A stretch of 58,340 nt of DNA from Clostridia bacterium (GTDB lineage Bacteria > Bacillota > Clostridia > Oscillospirales > Acutalibacteraceae), in contig JAUNFH010000001.1 in the NCBI GenBank assembly GCA_030525185.1, positions 1 to 58,340 of the forward strand, written 5' to 3'. Of this stretch, positions 4,339 to 12,987 are shown one piece after another. The position numbers were made by a program, and so were the translations under genes. The notes under the pieces were generated by a model that saw only the letters and a program-made list of their open reading frames with translations, searched no databases and was not told the DNA's origin. The first letter of the stretch is position 1. Each line of letters opens with the position of its first letter.

Positions 4339-4396
4339 TCAGTTGTAATGGTGTAATAGCACCATAATCATTTTATCGAAACGGAGGATATCCAGT

Positions 4397-4834
4397 ATGA
4401 AGAAAATTATTGCAGTTTTGCTTTCAGTCCTTGTTCTTTTCTCGGCTGTAAGCGTCGGCGCTTTTGCCGAAGACGAAACGGATGTTCAGACCTATTACAC
4501 AATCACCTTCGTTGATTACAACGGCGAAAAGATTGCTTCAAGACAGGTTGAACACGGAAAGGTTGTCAACGCTCCCGCGAACCCGTCGAGAGAGTCAACC
4601 GAAAAAACCGAATACATCTTCAAGGGTTGGTCGGCTGACAACGGCGTAACCGTTTATTCCGGAAACACCCTTCCCGTTGCAACGGCAGACGTTACTTACA
4701 CCGCTGTTTACGCAGAAAAGGAAATCAAGGAAAACCTCACCTTCTGGAAGCTTGTTGCTTCAATCTTGGAAAGAATCAACATGATTTTTGAATACTTCGA
4801 CAAGATTTTTGATTTCGACTTCAAGCGTCCGTAA
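4397..4834 (+). CDS. Small secreted protein with one InlB B-repeat (Listeria/Bacteroides repeat) and an aromatic C-terminal tail
   Basis: RBS GGAGGA. Signal peptide MKKIIAVLLSVLVLFSAVSVGAFA/ED. The repeat signature is YTITFVDYNGE...HGKVV..P.NP.....YIFKGW......LPVATADVTYTAVY. The tail is NLTFWKLVASILERINMIFEYFDKIFDFDFKRP. Confidence 0.65.
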   Translation: MKKIIAVLLSVLVLFSAVSVGAFAEDETDVQTYYTITFVDYNGEKIASRQVEHGKVVNAPANPSRESTEKTEYIFKGWSADNGVTVYSGNTLPVATADVTYTAVYAEKEIKENLTFWKLVASILERINMIFEYFDKIFDFDFKRP

Positions 4835-4850
4835 TCACAAAAACGAAAAA

Positions 4851-4886
4851 ATCCGCGGGTCCGCAAAAAGGCGGATCCGCTTTTTT
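4851..4886 (+). terminator. Rho-independent terminator
   Basis: GCGGGTCCGC-aaaaag-GCGGATCCGC followed by TTTTTT. Confidence 0.7.
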
Positions 4887-5560: not shown

Positions 5561-6610
5561 TCAATAATTGATGTCATAAACGTTCATGTCGTTCGTAAGT
5601 CTTGCTGTTCCGTCGATGGTTGAAAAAGCAATCTTTGCGTTTGCGGCAATGTCAACGTTGATATGGTGAACGATTGAAGTTACGTGGTCGTTCGTCGGGT
5701 CATAAGTAACCTGGAACGAGCTGTCGGTATAAGTAAGTTCAAAGTTGTTGACCGTAACACCGGGAACCTTGCTGACAACTTTGTCAACCTCGGTGTTGAT
5801 GTCCTTCATGCTTGCGGGCATCATTACCGCACCGTGGTACGACTGCGGAACGCAGGTGTCTGCCGGAGTGGGTTCGGGGTTCTTTTCGTCGTTGAGAACA
5901 AAACGAAGAGTTCTTGTTCCGTCGGCGTTATCGGTGCAAGAGGCTTCCTTGACGCAGCTGTAATCGGTAAGAACCGAACCTTTGTCGGTGTTGCAAATCG
6001 GAAGTTCGTGGTTGATTCGCGGCATTGTTGTTCCGTCTTCGGCGGTATAAACTTCGCCCTTTGTTGCGGTAACAAGCGAATTGGGGTTGTCTTCGGTGGT
6101 CATGTACGATTCGCCGAATTTAAGAAGCGAGTTGACTGCGCTTGAAAAGTTTCTGTATTCTTCGGGAAGAGCCTGATATTCCTTTTTTGAGTATCCGGGC
6201 TGATCCTGCTTCATTTTATTAAGAAGTTCGGTATATTTTTTGACGATTTCTTCATTCGTTTTCGGCGCGTCGGTTGAGGAAGAAGCCGGAGAATCGGTCT
6301 TTGTGTCTGCCGGAGCGTCGGTTTTTCCGTCTGCAGAAGCGGGAGCGGTTGTTTCCGCCGGAGCCTGGGTTGCCGGCTGAGCGGTCGGAGCAACCGTTGC
6401 GGCAACGGGAACGGCCTGAGCGCCGTTGTAATCAACGTCCGCATCAACGTTAACTTTGAAGTTCGTAATTCCGAAGGCGCCGCCGAGCATTGCGATGATG
6501 ATGAGAGCCGTAACAAGTTTCGGCCATGCTTTTTTCCAATTTTCGCTTCTCTTTTGACGTTTTTTGACAATCTTCATTGCTTCTTCAAGCATTTGTTCTT
6601 CTGTTTTCAT
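5561..6610 (-). CDS. Membrane-anchored hypothetical protein with an Ala/Pro/Thr-rich linker
   Basis: RBS GGAGAG. A basic N-terminus is followed by a single TM (WPKLVTALIIIAMLGGAFGITNF). Next comes a low-complexity linker, PVAATVAPTAQPATQAPAETTAPASADGKTDAPADTKTD, then a ~220-aa extracytoplasmic domain with paired Cys residues. I recognise no family. Confidence 0.6.
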   Translation of the reverse strand: MKTEEQMLEEAMKIVKKRQKRSENWKKAWPKLVTALIIIAMLGGAFGITNFKVNVDADVDYNGAQAVPVAATVAPTAQPATQAPAETTAPASADGKTDAPADTKTDSPASSSTDAPKTNEEIVKKYTELLNKMKQDQPGYSKKEYQALPEEYRNFSSAVNSLLKFGESYMTTEDNPNSLVTATKGEVYTAEDGTTMPRINHELPICNTDKGSVLTDYSCVKEASCTDNADGTRTLRFVLNDEKNPEPTPADTCVPQSYHGAVMMPASMKDINTEVDKVVSKVPGVTVNNFELTYTDSSFQVTYDPTNDHVTSIVHHINVDIAANAKIAFSTIDGTARLTNDMNVYDINY

Positions 6611-8354: not shown

Positions 8355-10127
8355 TCAGCCGAGCTTTGCTTCAATTACCGAGCCGCTTTCGCCCTTCGTG
8401 TAAGTGAACGAAACACTGTCGCCGACGTTGAGAATCACAACGGCTTCGTTTGAAGAAGCTGAAACTTTGTAATAGCTCTTTCCCTTTTCAAGCTTAATGA
8501 AGTAATAGCTTTCACCACCCATAACGGCAGTCCTGATTTCGGAAACTACACCCTTGACGGTGACCGTTTCGGCTTCGGTTTGATCTTTTCCGGTCTGCGA
8601 ATTGTCGGTGTCGTTTTTGATGTCGTCAATGTCAACTTTGATGTTTATATTGCTCTGAGCAAGAAGCTTGACGTAATTTTCGGTGCATTCTGCAATCGTC
8701 TTTCCGGTTGCAACAACCTGATAGTTCTGAACGTTAACCATTGCGTAATGCTTGACGAGGTTTGCGTCGTCTTTGAGCGACATGAAATATGTCGGCTGGC
8801 CGCTGATGTTAAGAAGGATCGGGAAGGTTGCGGTCCATTTGTAGTTTTGAACCTGACCTTCGGCGGAGCTCATTGCCGAGTATTCCTTTGCGCCGGAAAC
8901 CTCATAGAAGTTTGATTCCTTTGTTCTCATGTTGACGAGAACAAAGCCGATGATTGCCTGGTCGTTACTTACGGAAGTCACTCCGGTATACATATAAACG
9001 TCGTCGTTGAGAGCGAGGAAGTTCGAGCCTTCGGTTGCAACTCTCACACCTTCCTGACCGATGATCGAGTTGATGAAACCGCCCGAATATTTTCCGTAAT
9101 AATTATACTGTTCAACAAGAAGGTCGTTTGAATAAATTCCGTCAATCCACTGGAACTCCTTGTCGTTCTTGATTGTTTCGAGCGAGTATTCGTTGCATTC
9201 GCCCGTGATTGCGTTGACGATTACAACGCCCTTGACGTCGGTACCGCCGAAAAGACCGATTGTCTTGTCGAGTACCGGGCAAAGCCAGAACGGACGGCCT
9301 TCTTCGTCGATTTCAAAGTGAGGCTCGTCAAAAATATAAGTCGGATAAGCAAAACGAACGTGTCTCATGAGATACTTTGAAAAATGCTCTTCCGTTGAAT
9401 ATCTGATATAATTTCCCTCTTTGAGCATTACAAATTCCGTCTTCTGAGTAACCATGTTGACGATGATATAGCCGGGCATACCTTCCTTTGTGTTTTTGAA
9501 CCACTTGAAGATATCGCCGTAAGCAAGCGTTCCGACGCGGACGGGAGAATTCTTATAGTTAATCTGAGTGAACTGCGAAGCAACCTCAAACTGCGATTCC
9601 TTGTTGATTGAAGCAAGGTCGCCGAGGGTACGGGTTGCAAGTGCGGCGGAAGCGGCGGTGTCAAGAACGGGAACGGACTTGAAGTCTGCCTGCTTTATGT
9701 CACTCGAAAAAGTTTTGTCCTCCGAAACGGAAATGATTTTGCTGTATGACGAAGCGCGGAAAACCACAGACGAAAAAAGCATTCCGACTCCGACAACAAC
9801 GGCAAGAACGCCGATTATTATTCCGGGAACAACCGACTGCTTTTTGACATACTTCGTATATTCCGGCTTTAAAATCACACCGGAAAGAAGAACCTGAAGC
9901 GCAAGATAAATCACGGCAACGATTCCGACGAAGAAATAAAGTTCGGTGCTTTTAAAATTGAGCGCGGGAAGCATAAAATAATACGCAATCGCCGCACCGA
10001 TAATTGTTCCGACAATTGAAATTGCGGTTTTGAGTCCGGCTTTTGAAGGTGAAAGATAAGCGTCTTTTCCGCTTCCCTTTCCTTTTCCGCCGTTTCCGCC
10101 GGTAAAGTCAACCTTAATAGGTTCCAT
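8355..10127 (-). CDS. Hypothetical polytopic membrane protein with a large extracytoplasmic domain
   Basis: RBS AAGGAG. A Gly/Lys-rich N-terminus is followed by three TM segments (AISIVGTIIGAAIAYYFMLPAL, LYFFVGIVAVIYLALQVLLSGVI, VPGIIIGVLAVVVGVGMLFSSVVF). A ~450-aa soluble region follows. No family is confidently recognised. Confidence 0.6.
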   Translation of the reverse strand: MEPIKVDFTGGNGGKGKGSGKDAYLSPSKAGLKTAISIVGTIIGAAIAYYFMLPALNFKSTELYFFVGIVAVIYLALQVLLSGVILKPEYTKYVKKQSVVPGIIIGVLAVVVGVGMLFSSVVFRASSYSKIISVSEDKTFSSDIKQADFKSVPVLDTAASAALATRTLGDLASINKESQFEVASQFTQINYKNSPVRVGTLAYGDIFKWFKNTKEGMPGYIIVNMVTQKTEFVMLKEGNYIRYSTEEHFSKYLMRHVRFAYPTYIFDEPHFEIDEEGRPFWLCPVLDKTIGLFGGTDVKGVVIVNAITGECNEYSLETIKNDKEFQWIDGIYSNDLLVEQYNYYGKYSGGFINSIIGQEGVRVATEGSNFLALNDDVYMYTGVTSVSNDQAIIGFVLVNMRTKESNFYEVSGAKEYSAMSSAEGQVQNYKWTATFPILLNISGQPTYFMSLKDDANLVKHYAMVNVQNYQVVATGKTIAECTENYVKLLAQSNINIKVDIDDIKNDTDNSQTGKDQTEAETVTVKGVVSEIRTAVMGGESYYFIKLEKGKSYYKVSASSNEAVVILNVGDSVSFTYTKGESGSVIEAKLG

Positions 10128-10178
10128 TTCTACAACTCCTTAATGTTTGAAGCCGAAGCTTCAAAAGATAGTATTCCC

Positions 10179-10207
10179 ATTATACATATATGCAAAGAAA
10201 AAAGCAA
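10179..10207 (-). promoter_or_regulatory. Sigma-A-type promoter for the 8355..10127 gene
   Basis: On the minus strand: TTGCTT (10207-10202), a 17-nt spacer, then TATAAT (10184-10179). The 5' UTR carries a UUCG-tetraloop hairpin, TTTGAAGC-ttcg-GCTTCAAA (10146-10165). Confidence 0.55.
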
Positions 10208-10294
10208 TAAATTTTTTGTGAATCGGCAGTTAATAAACAAATGCGGAAAAATCAGTCCGTTCCTCACGGTGAATTTTTCTTTTCCGAAAGCAAT

Positions 10295-10330
10295 AAAAAA
10301 GCGGCCGGCGCTTTCGTGCCGGCCGCTTTT
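10295..10330 (-). terminator. Rho-independent terminator of the 35-aa small gene
   Basis: On the minus strand: GCGGCCGGC-acgaaagc-GCCGGCCGC followed by TTTTTTATT, starting ~10 nt after the small-ORF stop codon. Confidence 0.8.
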
Positions 10331-10340
10331 GTTCACGAAA

Positions 10341-10448
10341 TTATTCTTCGTCGCTCTTTACGAATGACTTGATGAAATCATAGATATAACCGAGGATTGA
10401 AGAAACGAAATTGAAAATTTCGGTGAGCTTTGCCGAAAGGTTATCCAT
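10341..10448 (-). CDS. Unannotated small ORF encoding a 35-aa amphipathic aromatic peptide
   Basis: Below the ORF-track size cut-off. ATG (10448-10446) lies 7 nt after AGAGGTG. Translation: MDNLSAKLTEIFNFVSSILGYIYDFIKSFVKSDEE, with stop TAA at 10343-10341. It has its own promoter (10526-10554) and a strong terminator. Confidence 0.6.
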   Translation of the reverse strand: MDNLSAKLTEIFNFVSSILGYIYDFIKSFVKSDEE

Positions 10449-10525
10449 TGTTTTGCACCTCTTTTCCGATAAAAATAAAACTAAAATTGAACCCTCTCAA
10501 AACCGTCGGATTCAAGTTCACGAAT

Positions 10526-10554
10526 ATTTTACCATTTTTCAAAAGCGGTGTCAA
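10526..10554 (-). promoter_or_regulatory. Near-consensus extended -10 promoter of the small ORF
   Basis: On the minus strand: TTGACA (10554-10549), a 17-nt spacer, then TGgTAAAAT (-10 at 10531-10526). Confidence 0.6.
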
Positions 10555-10602
10555 TCGCAGAAAAATAAGAGTTTCAAAATTTTTCTTCTTTTTCCTCACA
10601 GT

Positions 10603-10635
10603 ATGACATTTTTCTTTTCGGTCTCTTTCTATAAT
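10603..10635 (+). promoter_or_regulatory. Candidate spoIIE promoter with a 21-nt spacer
   Basis: ATGACA (10603-10608), a 21-nt spacer, then TATAAT (10630-10635), 42 nt upstream of the spoIIE ATG. Confidence 0.4.
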
Positions 10636-10677
10636 GACTTATCGGATAACAATTTTTTTGCGAAAGGACAAGCCTTT

Positions 10678-12987
10678 ATGAAAACCGAAGAAAGATTGAA
10701 TGAAGAAAAAAAGCTCACTGATTTTTTGTTTGACGAAGAAAGAGAATTTTCGCCGTGGCTTTGCCAACTCTGCGCCGCCGCAGTTTCGTTTTTACTTTCC
10801 CAACTCAACTGCCTCGGCTCGCTTTCGCCGTTCTGCGTTTCGTTTTGCGCCGGAACGGATTACGGCTACGTTGCCTGTGCTCTCATCGGCGGAGTTTCGG
10901 GATATTTTCTCGCCTTCGATTGGAAAACCGCCCTGCGATACAGCGCGGCGTTGCTTTTTTGCGCCGTTGTCCGCTTTTTAATCGAAAAAAAGTTTCCGTT
11001 CCTTCTCAAAAGCTTCACTCTTCCGCTCGTCGGCTTTTTGTCATGCCTTCTTCCGGCTGCGGTTTTTTCCGCCTTCGGCGATGAAAAGCTCGTTCTCCTG
11101 CTTTTCGGTTTTTGCGAAGCGGTGATTGCTTTTTGCTCCGTCTGCCTTTTTGAAAGGAGCGAACGCACGCAAATTTTAAGAACCGGAATTGCAAACCTCT
11201 CCGTTCAGGATATTGCCGGGGTCGGCCTTTGCCTTTGCATTCTTCTCCTCTGCGCTTCCGGGCTTTCTCTCGGGCCGATTGTCCCGGCGCGGATTTTTGC
11301 CGTTCTTGTCGTTCTTTTCGCCGCGCATTACAAAGGCCCTGCGGTTGCAAGCCTTTTCGGAGTCTGCGCCGCTTTTTCGCTTTCCGTTTCGGCTCAAACA
11401 AAATTTTTGTTTCCGGTCTTTTCACTCGGTGCGCTTTGCGCCGGAGTTTTTTCTCCGCTCGGTCAGCTTGCGGCTTCGATTGCCTTTTCGGTCAGTGCGG
11501 CCGCGCTTTCATTTCTGAACGGCTTTTCGGAAAATGTTTTTTGGGCGCTTCTTGAAATCTGCGCCGGAGCGGCGATTTTTGCCGTTATCCCTTCAAAAAA
11601 GATTTTTGCCCTTCATGCCGAACTTGAAAAAGGGCTTCTTTCTTCCGACGATCAGCTCAACCGCCGGGTTTGCGCCTCGCTTAAGCGTGCGGCGGAAACG
11701 GTAAACGAAGTTTCAAGCATCGTCACAAACGTCAGCGCACGGCTTGACAACGTAATCAATCCCGAAATCAACCGCATTTTTGCAAAACTTCAGCAAAACA
11801 TTTGCTTCGGCTGTTCCTTCAAAAATGAATGCTGGAGCGAAAAGTTCAACGAAACCTCTGCCGACGTTCTCACTCTCACCGGCCTTCGGGACAAAGAAAA
11901 GGAGCGCACCGAGCTTGAAAAGCGTTGTCCGAGAGCAAACGCCCTCGTTTCGCAGATAAGCTCATGCTACAGCGACTTTGCAACCGGACTCGCTTCAAAA
12001 ATGAAAGTCAAGGAAATGCGTTCGCTCGTCAGCGACCAATTTTCGTCAATCGCCCAGTTCCTTTCGGAGTTTGCCGTCCAGATGTCAAACAGCCGTGTTG
12101 TTGACAACACCCGCTCAAGAGCGCTCAAGACCGCACTTTCCGACGCAGACATTTTTGTTGACTGCGTGAACTACTTCACGAATCCGAACGGAAGAATCAC
12201 GATTGAAGTCAATGTTCTTGAAAACGCATTCGAGCTGAACCTCAAGCGGATGAAAACAATTTTTGAAGCTTCGACAAAACGTACCTTTGAAAAACCGGAA
12301 ATTGCGATTATGGAGCTTCGTTCGGTGATTACTTTTGAGGAAAAAGCCGTCTATAAAGTTCTTTTCGGTTCATGTCAGATTCCGTTCGGGAACAACACGG
12401 TCTGCGGAGACAGCATTGCAAAACTTCGGGACATGAACGGAAACGAAATTGCCCTCATAAGCGACGGAATGGGAACCGGTTCCCGTGCCGCCGTTGACGG
12501 AACAATGACCGCAACGCTGATGGAAAAACTTCTCTCCTGCTCCTTTTCTTTTGAAAGCGCGCTGAAAACGGTGAACTGCGCCCTGATGGTGAAATCAACC
12601 GACGAATCAATCGCAACGGTTGACGGAATCAGCGTCAACGTTTACTCCGGAGAAACCGTCTTTTACAAAGCCGGAGCCGCCGTTTCGTTCATCCGCCGCG
12701 GGAAGGAAATTGCCGCAATCGAAGAGCAGTCGCTTCCGATCGGAATCATCCGTGACGTCTGCTTCGCGCAAAAGGCAACAAAACTTGAAACCGAAGACAT
12801 TGTTCTTCTTTTATCCGACGGGGCAACCTTCGGCGACTGCGGCTGGATAAACGACGAGCTTTTGGCTTGGAGCACGAACAACATGGACGATCTTGCGTCC
12901 CATATCGCTTCGCTTGCAAGGCTGAGAAGTTCAAAGGAAAACGAGGACGACATTACGGTTGTTGCGCTCAAGGTCATTGAAAACTGA
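10678..12987 (+). CDS. spoIIE: Stage II sporulation protein E (membrane PP2C phosphatase)
   Basis: ORF 10411..12987, with the start moved to ATG 10678 (MKTEERLNEEKK); the upstream extension overlaps the small gene and both promoters. About 10 TM helices are followed by a central regulatory region. The C-terminal PP2C/SpoIIE domain shows GDSIAKLRDMNGNEIALISDGMGTGSRAAVDG...LLSDG...DDITVVALKV. Confidence 0.85.
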   Translation: MKTEERLNEEKKLTDFLFDEEREFSPWLCQLCAAAVSFLLSQLNCLGSLSPFCVSFCAGTDYGYVACALIGGVSGYFLAFDWKTALRYSAALLFCAVVRFLIEKKFPFLLKSFTLPLVGFLSCLLPAAVFSAFGDEKLVLLLFGFCEAVIAFCSVCLFERSERTQILRTGIANLSVQDIAGVGLCLCILLLCASGLSLGPIVPARIFAVLVVLFAAHYKGPAVASLFGVCAAFSLSVSAQTKFLFPVFSLGALCAGVFSPLGQLAASIAFSVSAAALSFLNGFSENVFWALLEICAGAAIFAVIPSKKIFALHAELEKGLLSSDDQLNRRVCASLKRAAETVNEVSSIVTNVSARLDNVINPEINRIFAKLQQNICFGCSFKNECWSEKFNETSADVLTLTGLRDKEKERTELEKRCPRANALVSQISSCYSDFATGLASKMKVKEMRSLVSDQFSSIAQFLSEFAVQMSNSRVVDNTRSRALKTALSDADIFVDCVNYFTNPNGRITIEVNVLENAFELNLKRMKTIFEASTKRTFEKPEIAIMELRSVITFEEKAVYKVLFGSCQIPFGNNTVCGDSIAKLRDMNGNEIALISDGMGTGSRAAVDGTMTATLMEKLLSCSFSFESALKTVNCALMVKSTDESIATVDGISVNVYSGETVFYKAGAAVSFIRRGKEIAAIEEQSLPIGIIRDVCFAQKATKLETEDIVLLLSDGATFGDCGWINDELLAWSTNNMDDLASHIASLARLRSSKENEDDITVVALKVIEN

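What the first reader, a model, noticed from the sequence alone, without database searches (positions are those of the whole stretch)
10295..10554. Unannotated stand-alone 35-aa gene next to spoIIE encodes a tail-like amphipathic peptide
A complete transcription unit sits on the minus strand, and the ORF track misses it. Its parts are:
- a promoter, TTGACA-17 nt-TGgTAAAAT (10554-10526)
- an RBS, AGAGGTG, 7 nt before the ATG at 10448
- the ORF MDNLSAKLTEIFNFVSSILGYIYDFIKSFVKSDEE, with its stop at 10341
- a 9-bp GC-only hairpin followed by a U-tract (10330-10295)

Finding all four expression signals around so short an ORF is unlikely by chance.

The peptide has no signal peptide. It is predicted to be helical and amphipathic, rich in F/I/Y, with an acidic C-terminus. 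It resembles the C-terminal tails of the five secreted proteins; compare IFEYFDKIFDF and FISSIYNWI. It could be a membrane-active peptide, a small regulatory or sporulation protein, or a partner or competitor of the tails. Its function is inference only.
Basis: partly seen in the sequence, partly recalled or inferred. Interest (0 to 1): 0.62.

Follow-up and report, generated by a model that had tools for sequence, protein, structure and literature searches.

The report
Expressed 35-aa amphipathic peptide gene
A tiny gene beside the sporulation gene spoIIE is real: it is conserved, under protein-level selection and abundantly transcribed in gut samples, and it encodes one long, acidic, greasy-faced helix that founds an unnamed small-protein family in a few uncultured gut Clostridia, but what it does is still inferred.

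Summary
**Observation: confirmed.**
- The minus strand carries TTGACA-17-TGgTAAAAT (10554-10526), RBS AAGAGGTG (10463-10456), a 35-codon ORF (10448-10341) and a 13-bp terminator stem with 9 G-C pairs (10330-10297).
- The same four-part module, with an intact frame, recurs in about 13 related species or MAG lineages.
- Sequence between the parts is not conserved. Among nine ORF variants, third-codon positions vary most (26 of 33) and dN/dS is mostly 0.08-0.4. It is therefore a protein gene, not an sRNA.
- In four probable metatranscriptome runs from one study, whole 161-187-nt contigs cover only 10321/10338-10498/10505, at depth 10-16. spoIIE is near zero. DNA runs cross these borders at even depth.

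**The product.**
- It is a single helix (AlphaFold pLDDT 88) and strongly amphipathic (µH 0.48 against 0.16 for shuffles).
- It is aromatic-rich, has net charge -2 to -3, and has no signal peptide and no true TM segment.
- It matches no Pfam, NCBIfam, PHROG, PADLOC, PDB, phage or plasmid entry.

**Interpretation.**
- The family sits in one subclade of a gut Oscillospirales-type genus. It is nearly always divergent from spoIIE, with one exception where the module moved.
- Likeness to the secreted-protein tails is compositional only.
- My best guess is a leaderless membrane- or interface-active peptide, like PSM-beta or delta-lysin in architecture but not by homology. The main rival is a cytoplasmic small regulator.

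The parts
10549..10554 (-). -35 hexamer TTGACA of the peptide gene's promoter
   Evidence: It is invariant in all relatives read.
10526..10534 (-). Extended -10 element, TGgTAAAAT, after a 17-nt spacer
   Evidence: TGnTAAWAT with a 17-nt spacer is conserved in the relatives. The assembly holds 119 sites of this quality.
10449..10519 (-). Predicted 5' UTR of about 70 nt, with a 5' stem-loop. The start point is inferred from the -10 element and has not been mapped.
   Evidence: The fold is. Neither the length nor the sequence of the UTR is conserved. The probable RNA contigs begin at 10505 or 10498.
10456..10463 (-). Ribosome-binding site AAGAGGTG, 7 nt before the ATG
   Evidence: An equivalent purine-rich RBS lies 6-9 nt before the ATG in every relative.
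10341..10448 (-). 35-codon ORF plus stop, encoding MDNLSAKLTEIFNFVSSILGYIYDFIKSFVKSDEE
   Evidence: Translation is. The family is shown. dN/dS is mostly 0.08-0.4, and variable sites by codon position are 16/11/26. The product is a single helix over residues 2-34 with pLDDT 88.
10291..10330 (-). Intrinsic terminator: a 13-bp stem with 9 G-C pairs, an 8-nt loop and a U-tract
   Evidence: Each relative has its own terminator of unrelated sequence.
10321..10505 (.). Extent of the discrete probable RNA contigs, which are unstranded
   Evidence: Whole contigs of 161-187 nt in runs X12-X15, at depth 2.1-16.1 with zero depth on both flanks. DNA controls cross both borders.
10593..10617 (.). Conserved block between the two back-to-back promoters (AAAAGAAAAATGTCRYACYGTG). 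It contains a Spo0A-box-like TGTCGCA, which is TGTCATA in the window. It belongs to the divergent spoIIE promoter: ATGACA, then 21 nt, then TATAAT at 10630-10635.
   Evidence: The alignment is, and the same block appears in L082. The Spo0A assignment is an inference from the B. subtilis consensus TGTCGAA, taken from my own knowledge.
10678..12987 (+). spoIIE, the divergent neighbour. Its true start is the ATG at 10678.
   Evidence: Pfam SpoIIE_N and SpoIIE, and TIGR02865. The start MKTEE is conserved in relatives.

Best explanation
This is a genuine, autonomously transcribed and strongly expressed protein-coding gene. It is driven by a near-consensus vegetative (sigma-A type) promoter with a TG extension and closed by its own terminator.

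**The product.**
- It is 35 aa long with no leader, and folds into one continuous alpha-helix.
- The hydrophobic face is wide (about 200 degrees) and aromatic (L4, L8, I11, F12, F14, V15, I18, L19, Y21, I22, Y23, F25, I26, F29, V30).
- The polar stripe is narrow and made of small or charged residues (T9, E10, N13, S16, S17, G20, D24, K27, S28, K31).
- The C-terminus is acidic, and net charge is -2 to -3.
- It founds an unnamed small-protein family confined to one subclade of an uncultured gut Oscillospirales-type genus.

**Most likely mode of action (inferred, not shown).** The helix self-associates at or in a membrane or other hydrophobic interface, as a surfactant-like or pore- or bundle-forming peptide. 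This is the architecture of the staphylococcal PSM-beta and delta-lysin class: leaderless, helical along its whole length, highly expressed and genus-restricted. There is no sequence homology to that class.

**Open point.** Whether the peptide acts on the cytoplasmic face or is exported by a non-Sec route is not resolved.

**Confidence by step.**
- Real, expressed coding gene: about 0.9.
- Single amphipathic helix: about 0.85.
- Membrane- or interface-active mechanism: about 0.45.
For: **Gene reality.**
- All four signals are present.
- The module is conserved in G238, G059, G022, G010, G017 and in metagenome contigs.
- More distant members keep the core. They are P0015-P0018; the promoter, RBS and terminator were read only for P0015 and P0016.
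- UTRs and terminators are not conserved, while the ORF is.
- Among the nine ORF variants, dN/dS is 0.08-0.4 in nearly all pairs that could be computed. Variable sites by codon position are 16/11/26 of 33.

**Expression.**
- In runs X12-X15, whole contigs of 161-187 nt span only 10321/10338-10498/10505.
- Depth there is 10-16 in the three deeper runs, the second highest in the 58-kb window. spoIIE and both flanks are near zero.
- DNA runs give even depth, and their contigs cross both borders.
- The RNA variant encodes A6T, N13K and L19F, which is the G238/P0013 protein, so the frame is kept.

**Structure.**
- AlphaFold gives a single helix over residues 2-34 with pLDDT 88.
- µH over residues 4-32 is 0.48, against 0.16 ± 0.08 for shuffles; none of 5000 shuffles reached it.
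- The invariant residues are mostly on the hydrophobic face, plus D24 and K31.
- A sum I made by hand from the Hessa insertion scale gives about +8 kcal/mol for the best 19-mer. On that estimate it is not a stand-alone TM segment.

**Autonomy.**
- In L080 the whole promoter-RBS-ORF-terminator module sits away from spoIIE.
- No conserved neighbour exists on the downstream side.
Against: - There is no direct evidence that the peptide is made, exported or binds membranes.
- Net negative charge disfavours binding to anionic bacterial membranes as a monomer.
- There is no adjacent transporter or immunity gene.
- Sequence matches to known membrane-active peptide families are all below threshold: PSMalpha E = 0.13 in 1 of 14 members, and PorA 12.8 bits against a cut-off of 50.
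- The RNA evidence comes from one study and two samples. It rests on unstranded assembled contigs, and the tool only guessed that the libraries are RNA.
- The almost constant position beside spoIIE is equally compatible with a sporulation-linked cytoplasmic role.
Confidence: 0.5

Rival explanations
1. It is a cytoplasmic small regulatory protein. The helix docks onto a specific protein partner, and the obvious candidate is the multi-pass membrane domain of the divergently encoded SpoIIE. It would hold SpoIIE or a division factor in check during vegetative growth, in the way small proteins such as MciZ, Sda or SpoVM tune sporulation.
For: - The divergent pairing with spoIIE holds across the window, G238, G059, G022, G010, G017, L038, L040-42, L081 and L082, even at about 50% peptide identity and saturated dS.
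- Polar-face residues D24 and K31 are invariant, and K27 and S16 nearly so. This suggests a specific contact.
- There is no signal peptide or transporter nearby, so a cytoplasmic location is the default.
- It is expressed while spoIIE is off, as a vegetative inhibitor would be.
- Peptide-bearing genomes are exactly those whose SpoIIE N-terminal region forms a distinct group: 58% identity or more, against 41% or less in the rest of the genus.
Against: - One relative (L080) has the module away from spoIIE.
- Synteny on the other side of spoIIE (DUF2238) is equally conserved. The linkage may therefore only reflect a young gene born in that intergenic region.
- A near-consensus promoter and a transcript far more abundant than most genes of the window are unusual for a stoichiometric regulator of a sporulation protein that is not even expressed.
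- The rest of the genus sporulates with SpoIIE and has no such ORF.
Confidence: 0.25
2. It is a leaderless bacteriocin-like antimicrobial peptide released to kill competitors.
For: It is a short, leaderless, amphipathic helix with strong expression and a narrow taxonomic range.
Against: - The peptide is anionic in every member. Known leaderless class II bacteriocins are cationic (my own knowledge).
- No ABC transporter, immunity gene or accessory gene is conserved next to it.
- It is single-copy, with no paralogue in its own genome.
- It has no Pfam or NCBIfam bacteriocin hit.
Confidence: 0.07
3. It is a free partner or competitor of the cationic aromatic C-terminal tails of the secreted proteins.
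For: - The tails are also aromatic amphipathic helices (best 18-mer µH 0.47-0.70) but of opposite charge.
- In the probable RNA runs, the two most abundant transcripts of the window are the peptide and the 145-aa tail-bearing protein.
Against: - No sequence relationship is detectable in either direction.
- The peptide has no signal peptide, while the tails are on Sec-exported proteins. The two would be in different compartments.
- Tail-bearing homologues occur in 60 of 61 genus genomes, most of which lack the peptide.
Confidence: 0.07
4. It is a type I toxin, or a non-coding or dual-function sRNA whose ORF is incidental.
For: It is a short structured transcript of about 200 nt with a strong terminator (z = -2.6). 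The peptide is small, hydrophobic and has an acidic tail, superficially like Fst-type toxins.
Against: - Conservation is confined to the promoter, RBS and ORF. Substitutions are enriched at wobble positions and dN/dS is 0.08-0.4.
- UTR length varies by about 35 nt.
- There is no conserved antisense promoter or 3' overlap region.
- There is no Rfam hit.
- There is no true TM segment.
- A strong RBS and high steady-state RNA are the opposite of the tight repression typical of type I toxins.
Confidence: 0.05

Closest known systems
Staphylococcal phenol-soluble modulins (beta-type) and delta-lysin
   Same: - The gene is a stand-alone unit for a 20-45-aa peptide with no signal peptide.
- The helix is amphipathic along essentially its whole length.
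- Expression is very high and the taxonomic range is narrow.
- Beta-type PSMs are also net-negative (my own knowledge).
   Different: - There is no detectable homology. Pfam PSMalpha gives E = 0.13 in 1 of 14 members and nothing for the others.
- The gene is single-copy rather than in tandem sets.
- The host is a spore-forming gut anaerobe.
- Export, N-formyl retention, quorum-sensing control and any lytic activity are all untested.
SpoVM and other small sporulation proteins of Bacillus (MciZ, Sda, CmpA)
   Same: - It is a small protein of fewer than 50 aa in a spore-former.
- SpoVM is likewise a single amphipathic helix that binds membrane peripherally.
- The gene lies beside a key stage II sporulation gene.
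   Different: - There is no Pfam or NCBIfam match.
- The promoter is a vegetative consensus type, not a sporulation-sigma type.
- It is transcribed while spoIIE is silent.
- It is anionic, whereas SpoVM is basic.
Corynebacterial PorA/PorH small channel peptides
   Same: - It is a leaderless, acidic, helical peptide of about 45 aa or less.
- There is a local GY(I/V)(Y/F)DF(I/L) resemblance.
- PorA is the only NCBIfam hit.
   Different: - The hit scores 12.8 bits against a cut-off of 50 (E = 0.085).
- PorA acts in a mycolic-acid outer membrane and is O-mycoloylated. Clostridia have neither feature.
Type I toxins of the Fst/Ldr kind
   Same: It is a peptide of about 35 aa with a hydrophobic N-terminal two-thirds and an acidic C-terminal tail.
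   Different: - There is no true TM segment.
- There is no conserved antisense RNA.
- It has a strong RBS and abundant mRNA.
Unnamed small-ORF families catalogued from human and animal gut metagenomes
   Same: Relatives are already present as unnamed 34-47-aa gene calls in public catalogues from NCBI, ENA and Logan.
   Different: No name, Pfam family or function is attached to them. The expression, selection and structural evidence assembled here is new for this family.

Membership tests
Phenol-soluble modulins / delta-lysin (Pfam PSMalpha and related) | Sequence match to the family profiles above the curated threshold | tested here: not met
   Pfam scan of 14 members: PSMalpha E = 0.13 in 1 member, and no other PSM or delta-lysin family listed.
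Phenol-soluble modulins / delta-lysin (Pfam PSMalpha and related) | Leaderless peptide forming one amphipathic alpha-helix | tested here: met
   There is no N-terminal basic or hydrophobic signal region in the sequence. AlphaFold gives a helix over residues 2-34 with pLDDT 88. µH is 0.48, with none of 5000 shuffles reaching it.
Phenol-soluble modulins / delta-lysin (Pfam PSMalpha and related) | Export by a dedicated ABC transporter, retention of N-formyl-Met, and surfactant or lytic activity | not testable with these tools
   This needs peptide chemistry, MS and genetics. No transporter is conserved next to the gene.
Leaderless class II bacteriocins | Cationic peptide with linked immunity and transport genes | tested here: not met
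   Net charge is -2 to -3 in the four members computed. No gene on the downstream side is conserved.
Type I toxin-antitoxin (Fst/Ldr-like) | Transmembrane toxin peptide plus a conserved overlapping antisense RNA | tested here: not met
   No conserved sequence or promoter lies on the opposite strand or 3' of the ORF. A sum I made by hand from the Hessa scale gives about +8 kcal/mol for the best 19-mer. There is no Rfam hit.
SpoVM (Pfam) and other small sporulation proteins | Profile match, and a sporulation-specific promoter or expression pattern | tested here: not met
   There is no Pfam or NCBIfam match. The promoter is a sigma-A consensus type. RNA is abundant while spoIIE is near zero.
PorA family porin (NF033925) | Score at or above the NCBIfam cut-off of 50 bits | tested here: not met
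   12.8 bits, E = 0.085.
Aromatic amphipathic C-terminal tails of the window's secreted proteins | Detectable sequence relationship and shared phyletic distribution | tested here: not met
   The peptide profile searched against the genome, and phmmer with two of the tails, give no significant cross-hit. The tails are basic and the peptide acidic. The tail protein is in 60 of 61 genus genomes, while the peptide is in one subclade only.
New small-protein family (this report) | 34-43 aa; core L-x-x-[IMV]-[FS]-x-F-[VI]-[STA]-x-I-[LFIV]-x-[YN]-[ILV]-x-[DN]-F; own sigma-A promoter and terminator | tested here: met
   Alignments A1 and A4, the distant members, and promoters and terminators read.

The most novel reading that the evidence does not exclude
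Gut Oscillospirales-type Clostridia make their own class of leaderless, N-formylated, surfactant-like amphipathic peptides. These would be functional counterparts of staphylococcal PSMs that arose independently. They would be abundantly produced in the gut and released, where they could shape cell-surface or biofilm behaviour and be sensed by host formyl-peptide receptors.
Probability: 0.15. Interest if true: 0.7.

Novelty: new variant of a known kind. Interest (0 to 1): 0.42.

Why it matters
Small proteins of uncultured gut anaerobes are mostly unannotated and rarely backed by evidence. This case combines four kinds of support: complete and conserved expression signals, a clear signature of purifying selection, a discrete and abundant transcript in gut samples, and a confident structural prediction. 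That makes it a well-founded candidate for experiment.

- If the peptide is membrane- or interface-active, it would extend the PSM type of biology beyond staphylococci to abundant gut commensals.
- If it instead binds SpoIIE, it would be a lineage-specific regulator of entry into sporulation.
- It is also a clean example of a young, lineage-restricted gene that carries its own near-consensus promoter and terminator as a portable module.

Tried and rejected
1. **YidC lead.** The family profile hit the N-terminus of YidC in another genus (MTEIFNFFGNILGYLLWFFY; E = 2e-5 per genome). The window genome's own YidC N-terminus (MFDFLYSIFGFLFRILYQFI...) is not similar. I treat the hit as compositional convergence.
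2. **Possible paralogue on contig C19.** The hit lies in the wrong frame of a different small gene, MDVRVGDVLVMKKKHPCG..., which has its own promoter. It is spurious. The other weak hits in the assembly were also not significant.
3. **Sub-threshold family matches.** Pfam SelK_SelG matched 7 of 14 members with a best E of 5e-4, but the members re-scanned alone scored 12.8 and 14.8 bits against a cut-off of 23.3. DUF2953, PSMalpha and NCBIfam PorA were also below threshold.
4. **PDB profile search.** Only chance helix matches, with E of 0.4 or more. I did not run fold search, because a single helix matches any helix.
5. **PHROGs, PADLOC, phage and plasmid collections.** Nothing found.
6. **Homology to the secreted-protein tails.** None found.
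7. **A diverged small ORF upstream of spoIIE elsewhere in the genus.** None in 25 further loci.
8. **Replication of expression in other species.**
   - No RNA run was found for the G022 type.
   - The runs labelled RNA-Seq for the G059 type (X16-X18) behave like genomic DNA, with even depth and 1-5-kb contigs. X19 is too shallow.
9. **Tool limit.** Putting a 40-aa member first in the alignment solved it.
10. **Literature.** Searches for a described small protein next to spoIIE, or for PSM-like peptides in Ruminococcaceae, found nothing relevant.
Full report
**1. The observation**

- The promoter is TTGACA (10554-10549), a 17-nt spacer ending in TG (10534-10533), and TAAAAT (10531-10526).
- The RBS is AAGAGGTG (10463-10456), 7 nt before the ATG at 10448.
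- The ORF has 35 codons and ends at TAA 10343-10341.
- The hairpin spans 10330-10297. Its core is nine G-C pairs, extended to 13 pairs by A-U, and it is followed by TTTTTTATT.

The consensus scan independently reports the promoter (11 of 12, TG present) and this terminator as the strongest of their kind in 9000-12000. Genome-wide, only 119 sites on both strands of the 2.36-Mb assembly reach this promoter quality. No upstream in-frame start codon exists. Rfam finds only a tRNA in the window.

The neighbour on the plus strand is spoIIE (Pfam SpoIIE_N and SpoIIE, TIGR02865). Its real start is the ATG at 10678, so the two genes are divergent and separated by 229 bp.

**2. Is it a gene?**

*Relatives.*
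- A six-frame search of 40 relatives found intact homologues in three species of the same genus.
- A profile search of 300 genomes of the family added two more, again of the same genus.
- The 5.8-billion-protein catalogue holds 13 further unnamed proteins of 34-68 aa; the 47- and 68-aa entries are longer calls of the same ORF.
- An exhaustive profile search of 1.84 billion cluster representatives found only six clusters of true relatives. These include four more distant ones, P0015-P0018, of 35-43 aa.
- All come from MAGs or metagenome contigs. The sources include gut and manure samples, and the records are labelled Ruminococcaceae, Clostridiaceae or Eubacteriales bacterium.

*Conservation pattern.* In every locus I read, the ORF is preceded by a perfect TTGACA, a 17-nt spacer, TGnTAAWAT and a purine-rich RBS 6-9 nt before the ATG. 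It is followed by a terminator hairpin of unrelated sequence. In the DNA alignment, conservation is confined to the promoter hexamers, the RBS and the ORF. The 5' UTR differs in length by about 35 nt, and the 3' region does not align.

*Selection.* Among nine distinct ORF sequences, the variable sites by codon position are 16, 11 and 26 of 33 codons. Pairwise dN/dS is 0.08-0.4 for nearly all pairs that could be computed, while dS often exceeds 1. This is the signature of a translated, selected protein, not of an sRNA.

**3. Expression**

Four runs of one study (X12-X15, two samples), which the tool guesses to be RNA, contain whole contigs of 161-187 nt. These map only to 10321/10338-10498/10505, at about 95% identity.
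- The differences from the window give A6T, N13K, L19F and one synonymous change. That is exactly the protein of species G238 and P0013, so the contigs come from a sister species and keep the frame.
- Across the whole 58-kb window these runs give patchy coverage bounded by genes.
- The peptide unit has depth 10-16 in the three deeper runs. Only the 145-aa secreted-protein gene (4385-4851) is higher, at 16-26.
- Most other pieces are at 2-9. spoIIE is near zero, and both flanks of the peptide unit are zero.
- In the shallow run X12, the peptide contig is one of only two fully matching pieces from the first 20 kb.

As a control, DNA metagenomes show even depth and contigs that run straight across the promoter, the ORF and the spoIIE start. 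One of these contigs is 5.3 kb at depth 15. Runs labelled RNA-Seq for another species behaved the same DNA-like way. This shows what genomic coverage looks like with this tool.

I conclude that a discrete, abundant transcript matching the predicted unit exists in vivo and is made when spoIIE is not. Three caveats apply:
- the contigs are unstranded;
- they fall about 14 nt short of the predicted start and about 30-45 nt short of the predicted end;
- only one study supports them.

**4. The product**

- AlphaFold with the family alignment predicts one helix over residues 2-34, with mean pLDDT 88.
- The helical hydrophobic moment of residues 4-32 is 0.48, against 0.16 ± 0.08 for shuffles; none of 5000 shuffles reached it. 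The four relatives computed give 0.43-0.48.
- The hydrophobic face spans about 200 degrees and is unusually aromatic, with five Phe and two Tyr.
- The polar stripe is narrow and made of Ser, Thr, Asn, Gly, Asp and Lys. Net charge is -2 to -3.
- The invariant columns are M1, L8, I11, F12, F14, V15, I18, Y21, D24, F25 and K31.
- There is no signal peptide, lipobox, Cys or double-glycine motif. Position 20 alternates between G and N.
- A sum I made by hand from the Hessa insertion scale gives about +8 kcal/mol for the best 19-mer. On that estimate it is not a stand-alone transmembrane segment.
- No family in Pfam, NCBIfam, PHROGs, PADLOC or the PDB matches above threshold, and there is no phage or plasmid match.

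**5. Distribution and context**

- The genus is deep. The SpoIIE N-terminal region is 58-95% identical among the four peptide-bearing species found in that search (G238, G022, G010, G017) and 41% or less in the other members found.
- The 25 spoIIE upstream regions from that search that lie outside the subclade have no comparable small divergent ORF. The family is therefore a lineage-specific invention.
- The gene is divergent from spoIIE in the window, G238, G059, G022, G010, G017, L038, L040-42, L081 (P0017) and L082 (P0015).
- Its downstream neighbour differs each time: a 590-aa ORF here, a 352-aa ORF, a phage terminase-portal-capsid block, or a 217-aa ORF.
- In L080 (P0016) the complete module lies immediately after the stop codon of an unrelated same-strand gene, with a PTAC-family (phosphate propanoyltransferase) gene convergent downstream. 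The module is therefore autonomous, and the spoIIE linkage is not obligatory.
- Between the two back-to-back promoters lies a conserved block that contains TGTCGCA (TGTCATA in the window). It sits where the spoIIE promoter has ATGACA, 21 nt before TATAAT. I read it as a Spo0A-box-like element of the spoIIE promoter. This is an inference from the B. subtilis consensus. It lies about 45 nt upstream of the peptide's -35 element.

**6. The 'tail-like' idea**

- The five secreted proteins do end in aromatic amphipathic segments, with a best 18-mer µH of 0.47-0.70.
- The family profile does not score them, and two tails used as queries do not find the peptide or each other.
- The tails are basic, whereas the peptide is acidic.
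- The tails are on Sec-exported proteins, whereas the peptide has no leader.
- Full-length homologues of the 145-aa tail-bearing protein occur in 60 of 61 genus genomes.

The likeness is one of physico-chemical style only, and an obligate partnership is excluded. A lineage-specific add-on role cannot be excluded. The only hint for it is that the 145-aa gene and the peptide are the two most abundant transcripts of the window.

**7. Mechanism**

*What is shown.* It is a real, selected and abundantly transcribed gene for a leaderless, single, strongly amphipathic acidic helix.

*What is inferred.* A helix with a 200-degree aromatic face cannot stay monomeric in water. It must bury that face in a membrane interface, in a homo-oligomer or against a partner.
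- The near-consensus promoter, high transcript level, autonomy of the module and narrow taxonomic range fit best the architecture of leaderless surfactant or pore-forming peptides of the PSM-beta and delta-lysin kind. PSM-beta peptides are likewise anionic. I put this at about 0.45-0.5.
- The main rival, at about 0.25, is a cytoplasmic small regulator that docks on a protein. SpoIIE's membrane domain is the obvious candidate, given the linkage and the invariant D24 and K31.
- Leaderless bacteriocin, tail partner, type I toxin and sRNA are each unlikely, for the reasons given under the rival explanations.

**8. Novelty and verdict**

The family is unnamed and has no detectable homology to any described family. 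The kind of thing it is, a small leaderless amphipathic peptide, is known. I rate it a new variant of a known kind and of moderate interest. It is a solid, experiment-ready small-protein candidate from uncultured gut Clostridia, with unusually good in-silico and in-vivo support for being real, but its function is not yet demonstrated.

Noticed in passing
window 10593-10635: The spoIIE promoter has the layout ATGACA (TGCGACA in relatives), then 21 nt, then TATAAT. A 21-nt block around the Spo0A-box-like TGTCGCA is conserved in all relatives. This suggests Spo0A-dependent activation with an over-long spacer, as in Bacillus spoIIE and spoIIG.
   Followed up: partly
window 4385-4851: The 145-aa secreted Flg_new/InlB-B-repeat protein with the aromatic C-terminal tail is the most abundant transcript of the 58-kb window in runs X13-X15 (depth 16-26). 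It has full-length homologues in 60 of 61 genomes of the genus.
   Followed up: partly
L038 6378-12111: In one relative, a phage packaging and head block (small and large terminase, portal, capsid) starts about 270 nt after the peptide gene's stop. The region just downstream of the peptide terminator may therefore be a prophage or phage-like element insertion site.
   Followed up: no
window 8355-10127 (-) and 5561-6610 (-): The 590-aa and 349-aa ORFs have no Pfam family. ORFs of nearly the same length (591 and 352 aa) sit near the peptide gene in relatives but in a different order (L040), which points to local rearrangement around the M20 peptidase gene.
   Followed up: no
L025 1492-1569 (another genus of the family): The N-terminus of a YidC insertase (MTEIFNFFGNILGYLLWFFY) matches the peptide profile at E = 2e-5 per genome and is 11 of 23 identical to the window peptide. 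The window genome's own YidC does not share this. It is probably convergence of aromatic helices.
   Followed up: yes
window 10484-10515: The window and its sister species G238 carry an extra segment of about 35 nt in the 5' UTR that the other species lack. It forms a predicted 5'-terminal stem-loop, which might stabilise the mRNA.
   Followed up: partly
runs X16-X18 laid on L077 2000-6500: Runs whose library description says RNA-Seq (source GENOMIC, LS454) give even depth and kilobase-long contigs across genes and intergenic DNA. They behave as DNA and should not be used as expression evidence.
   Followed up: yes
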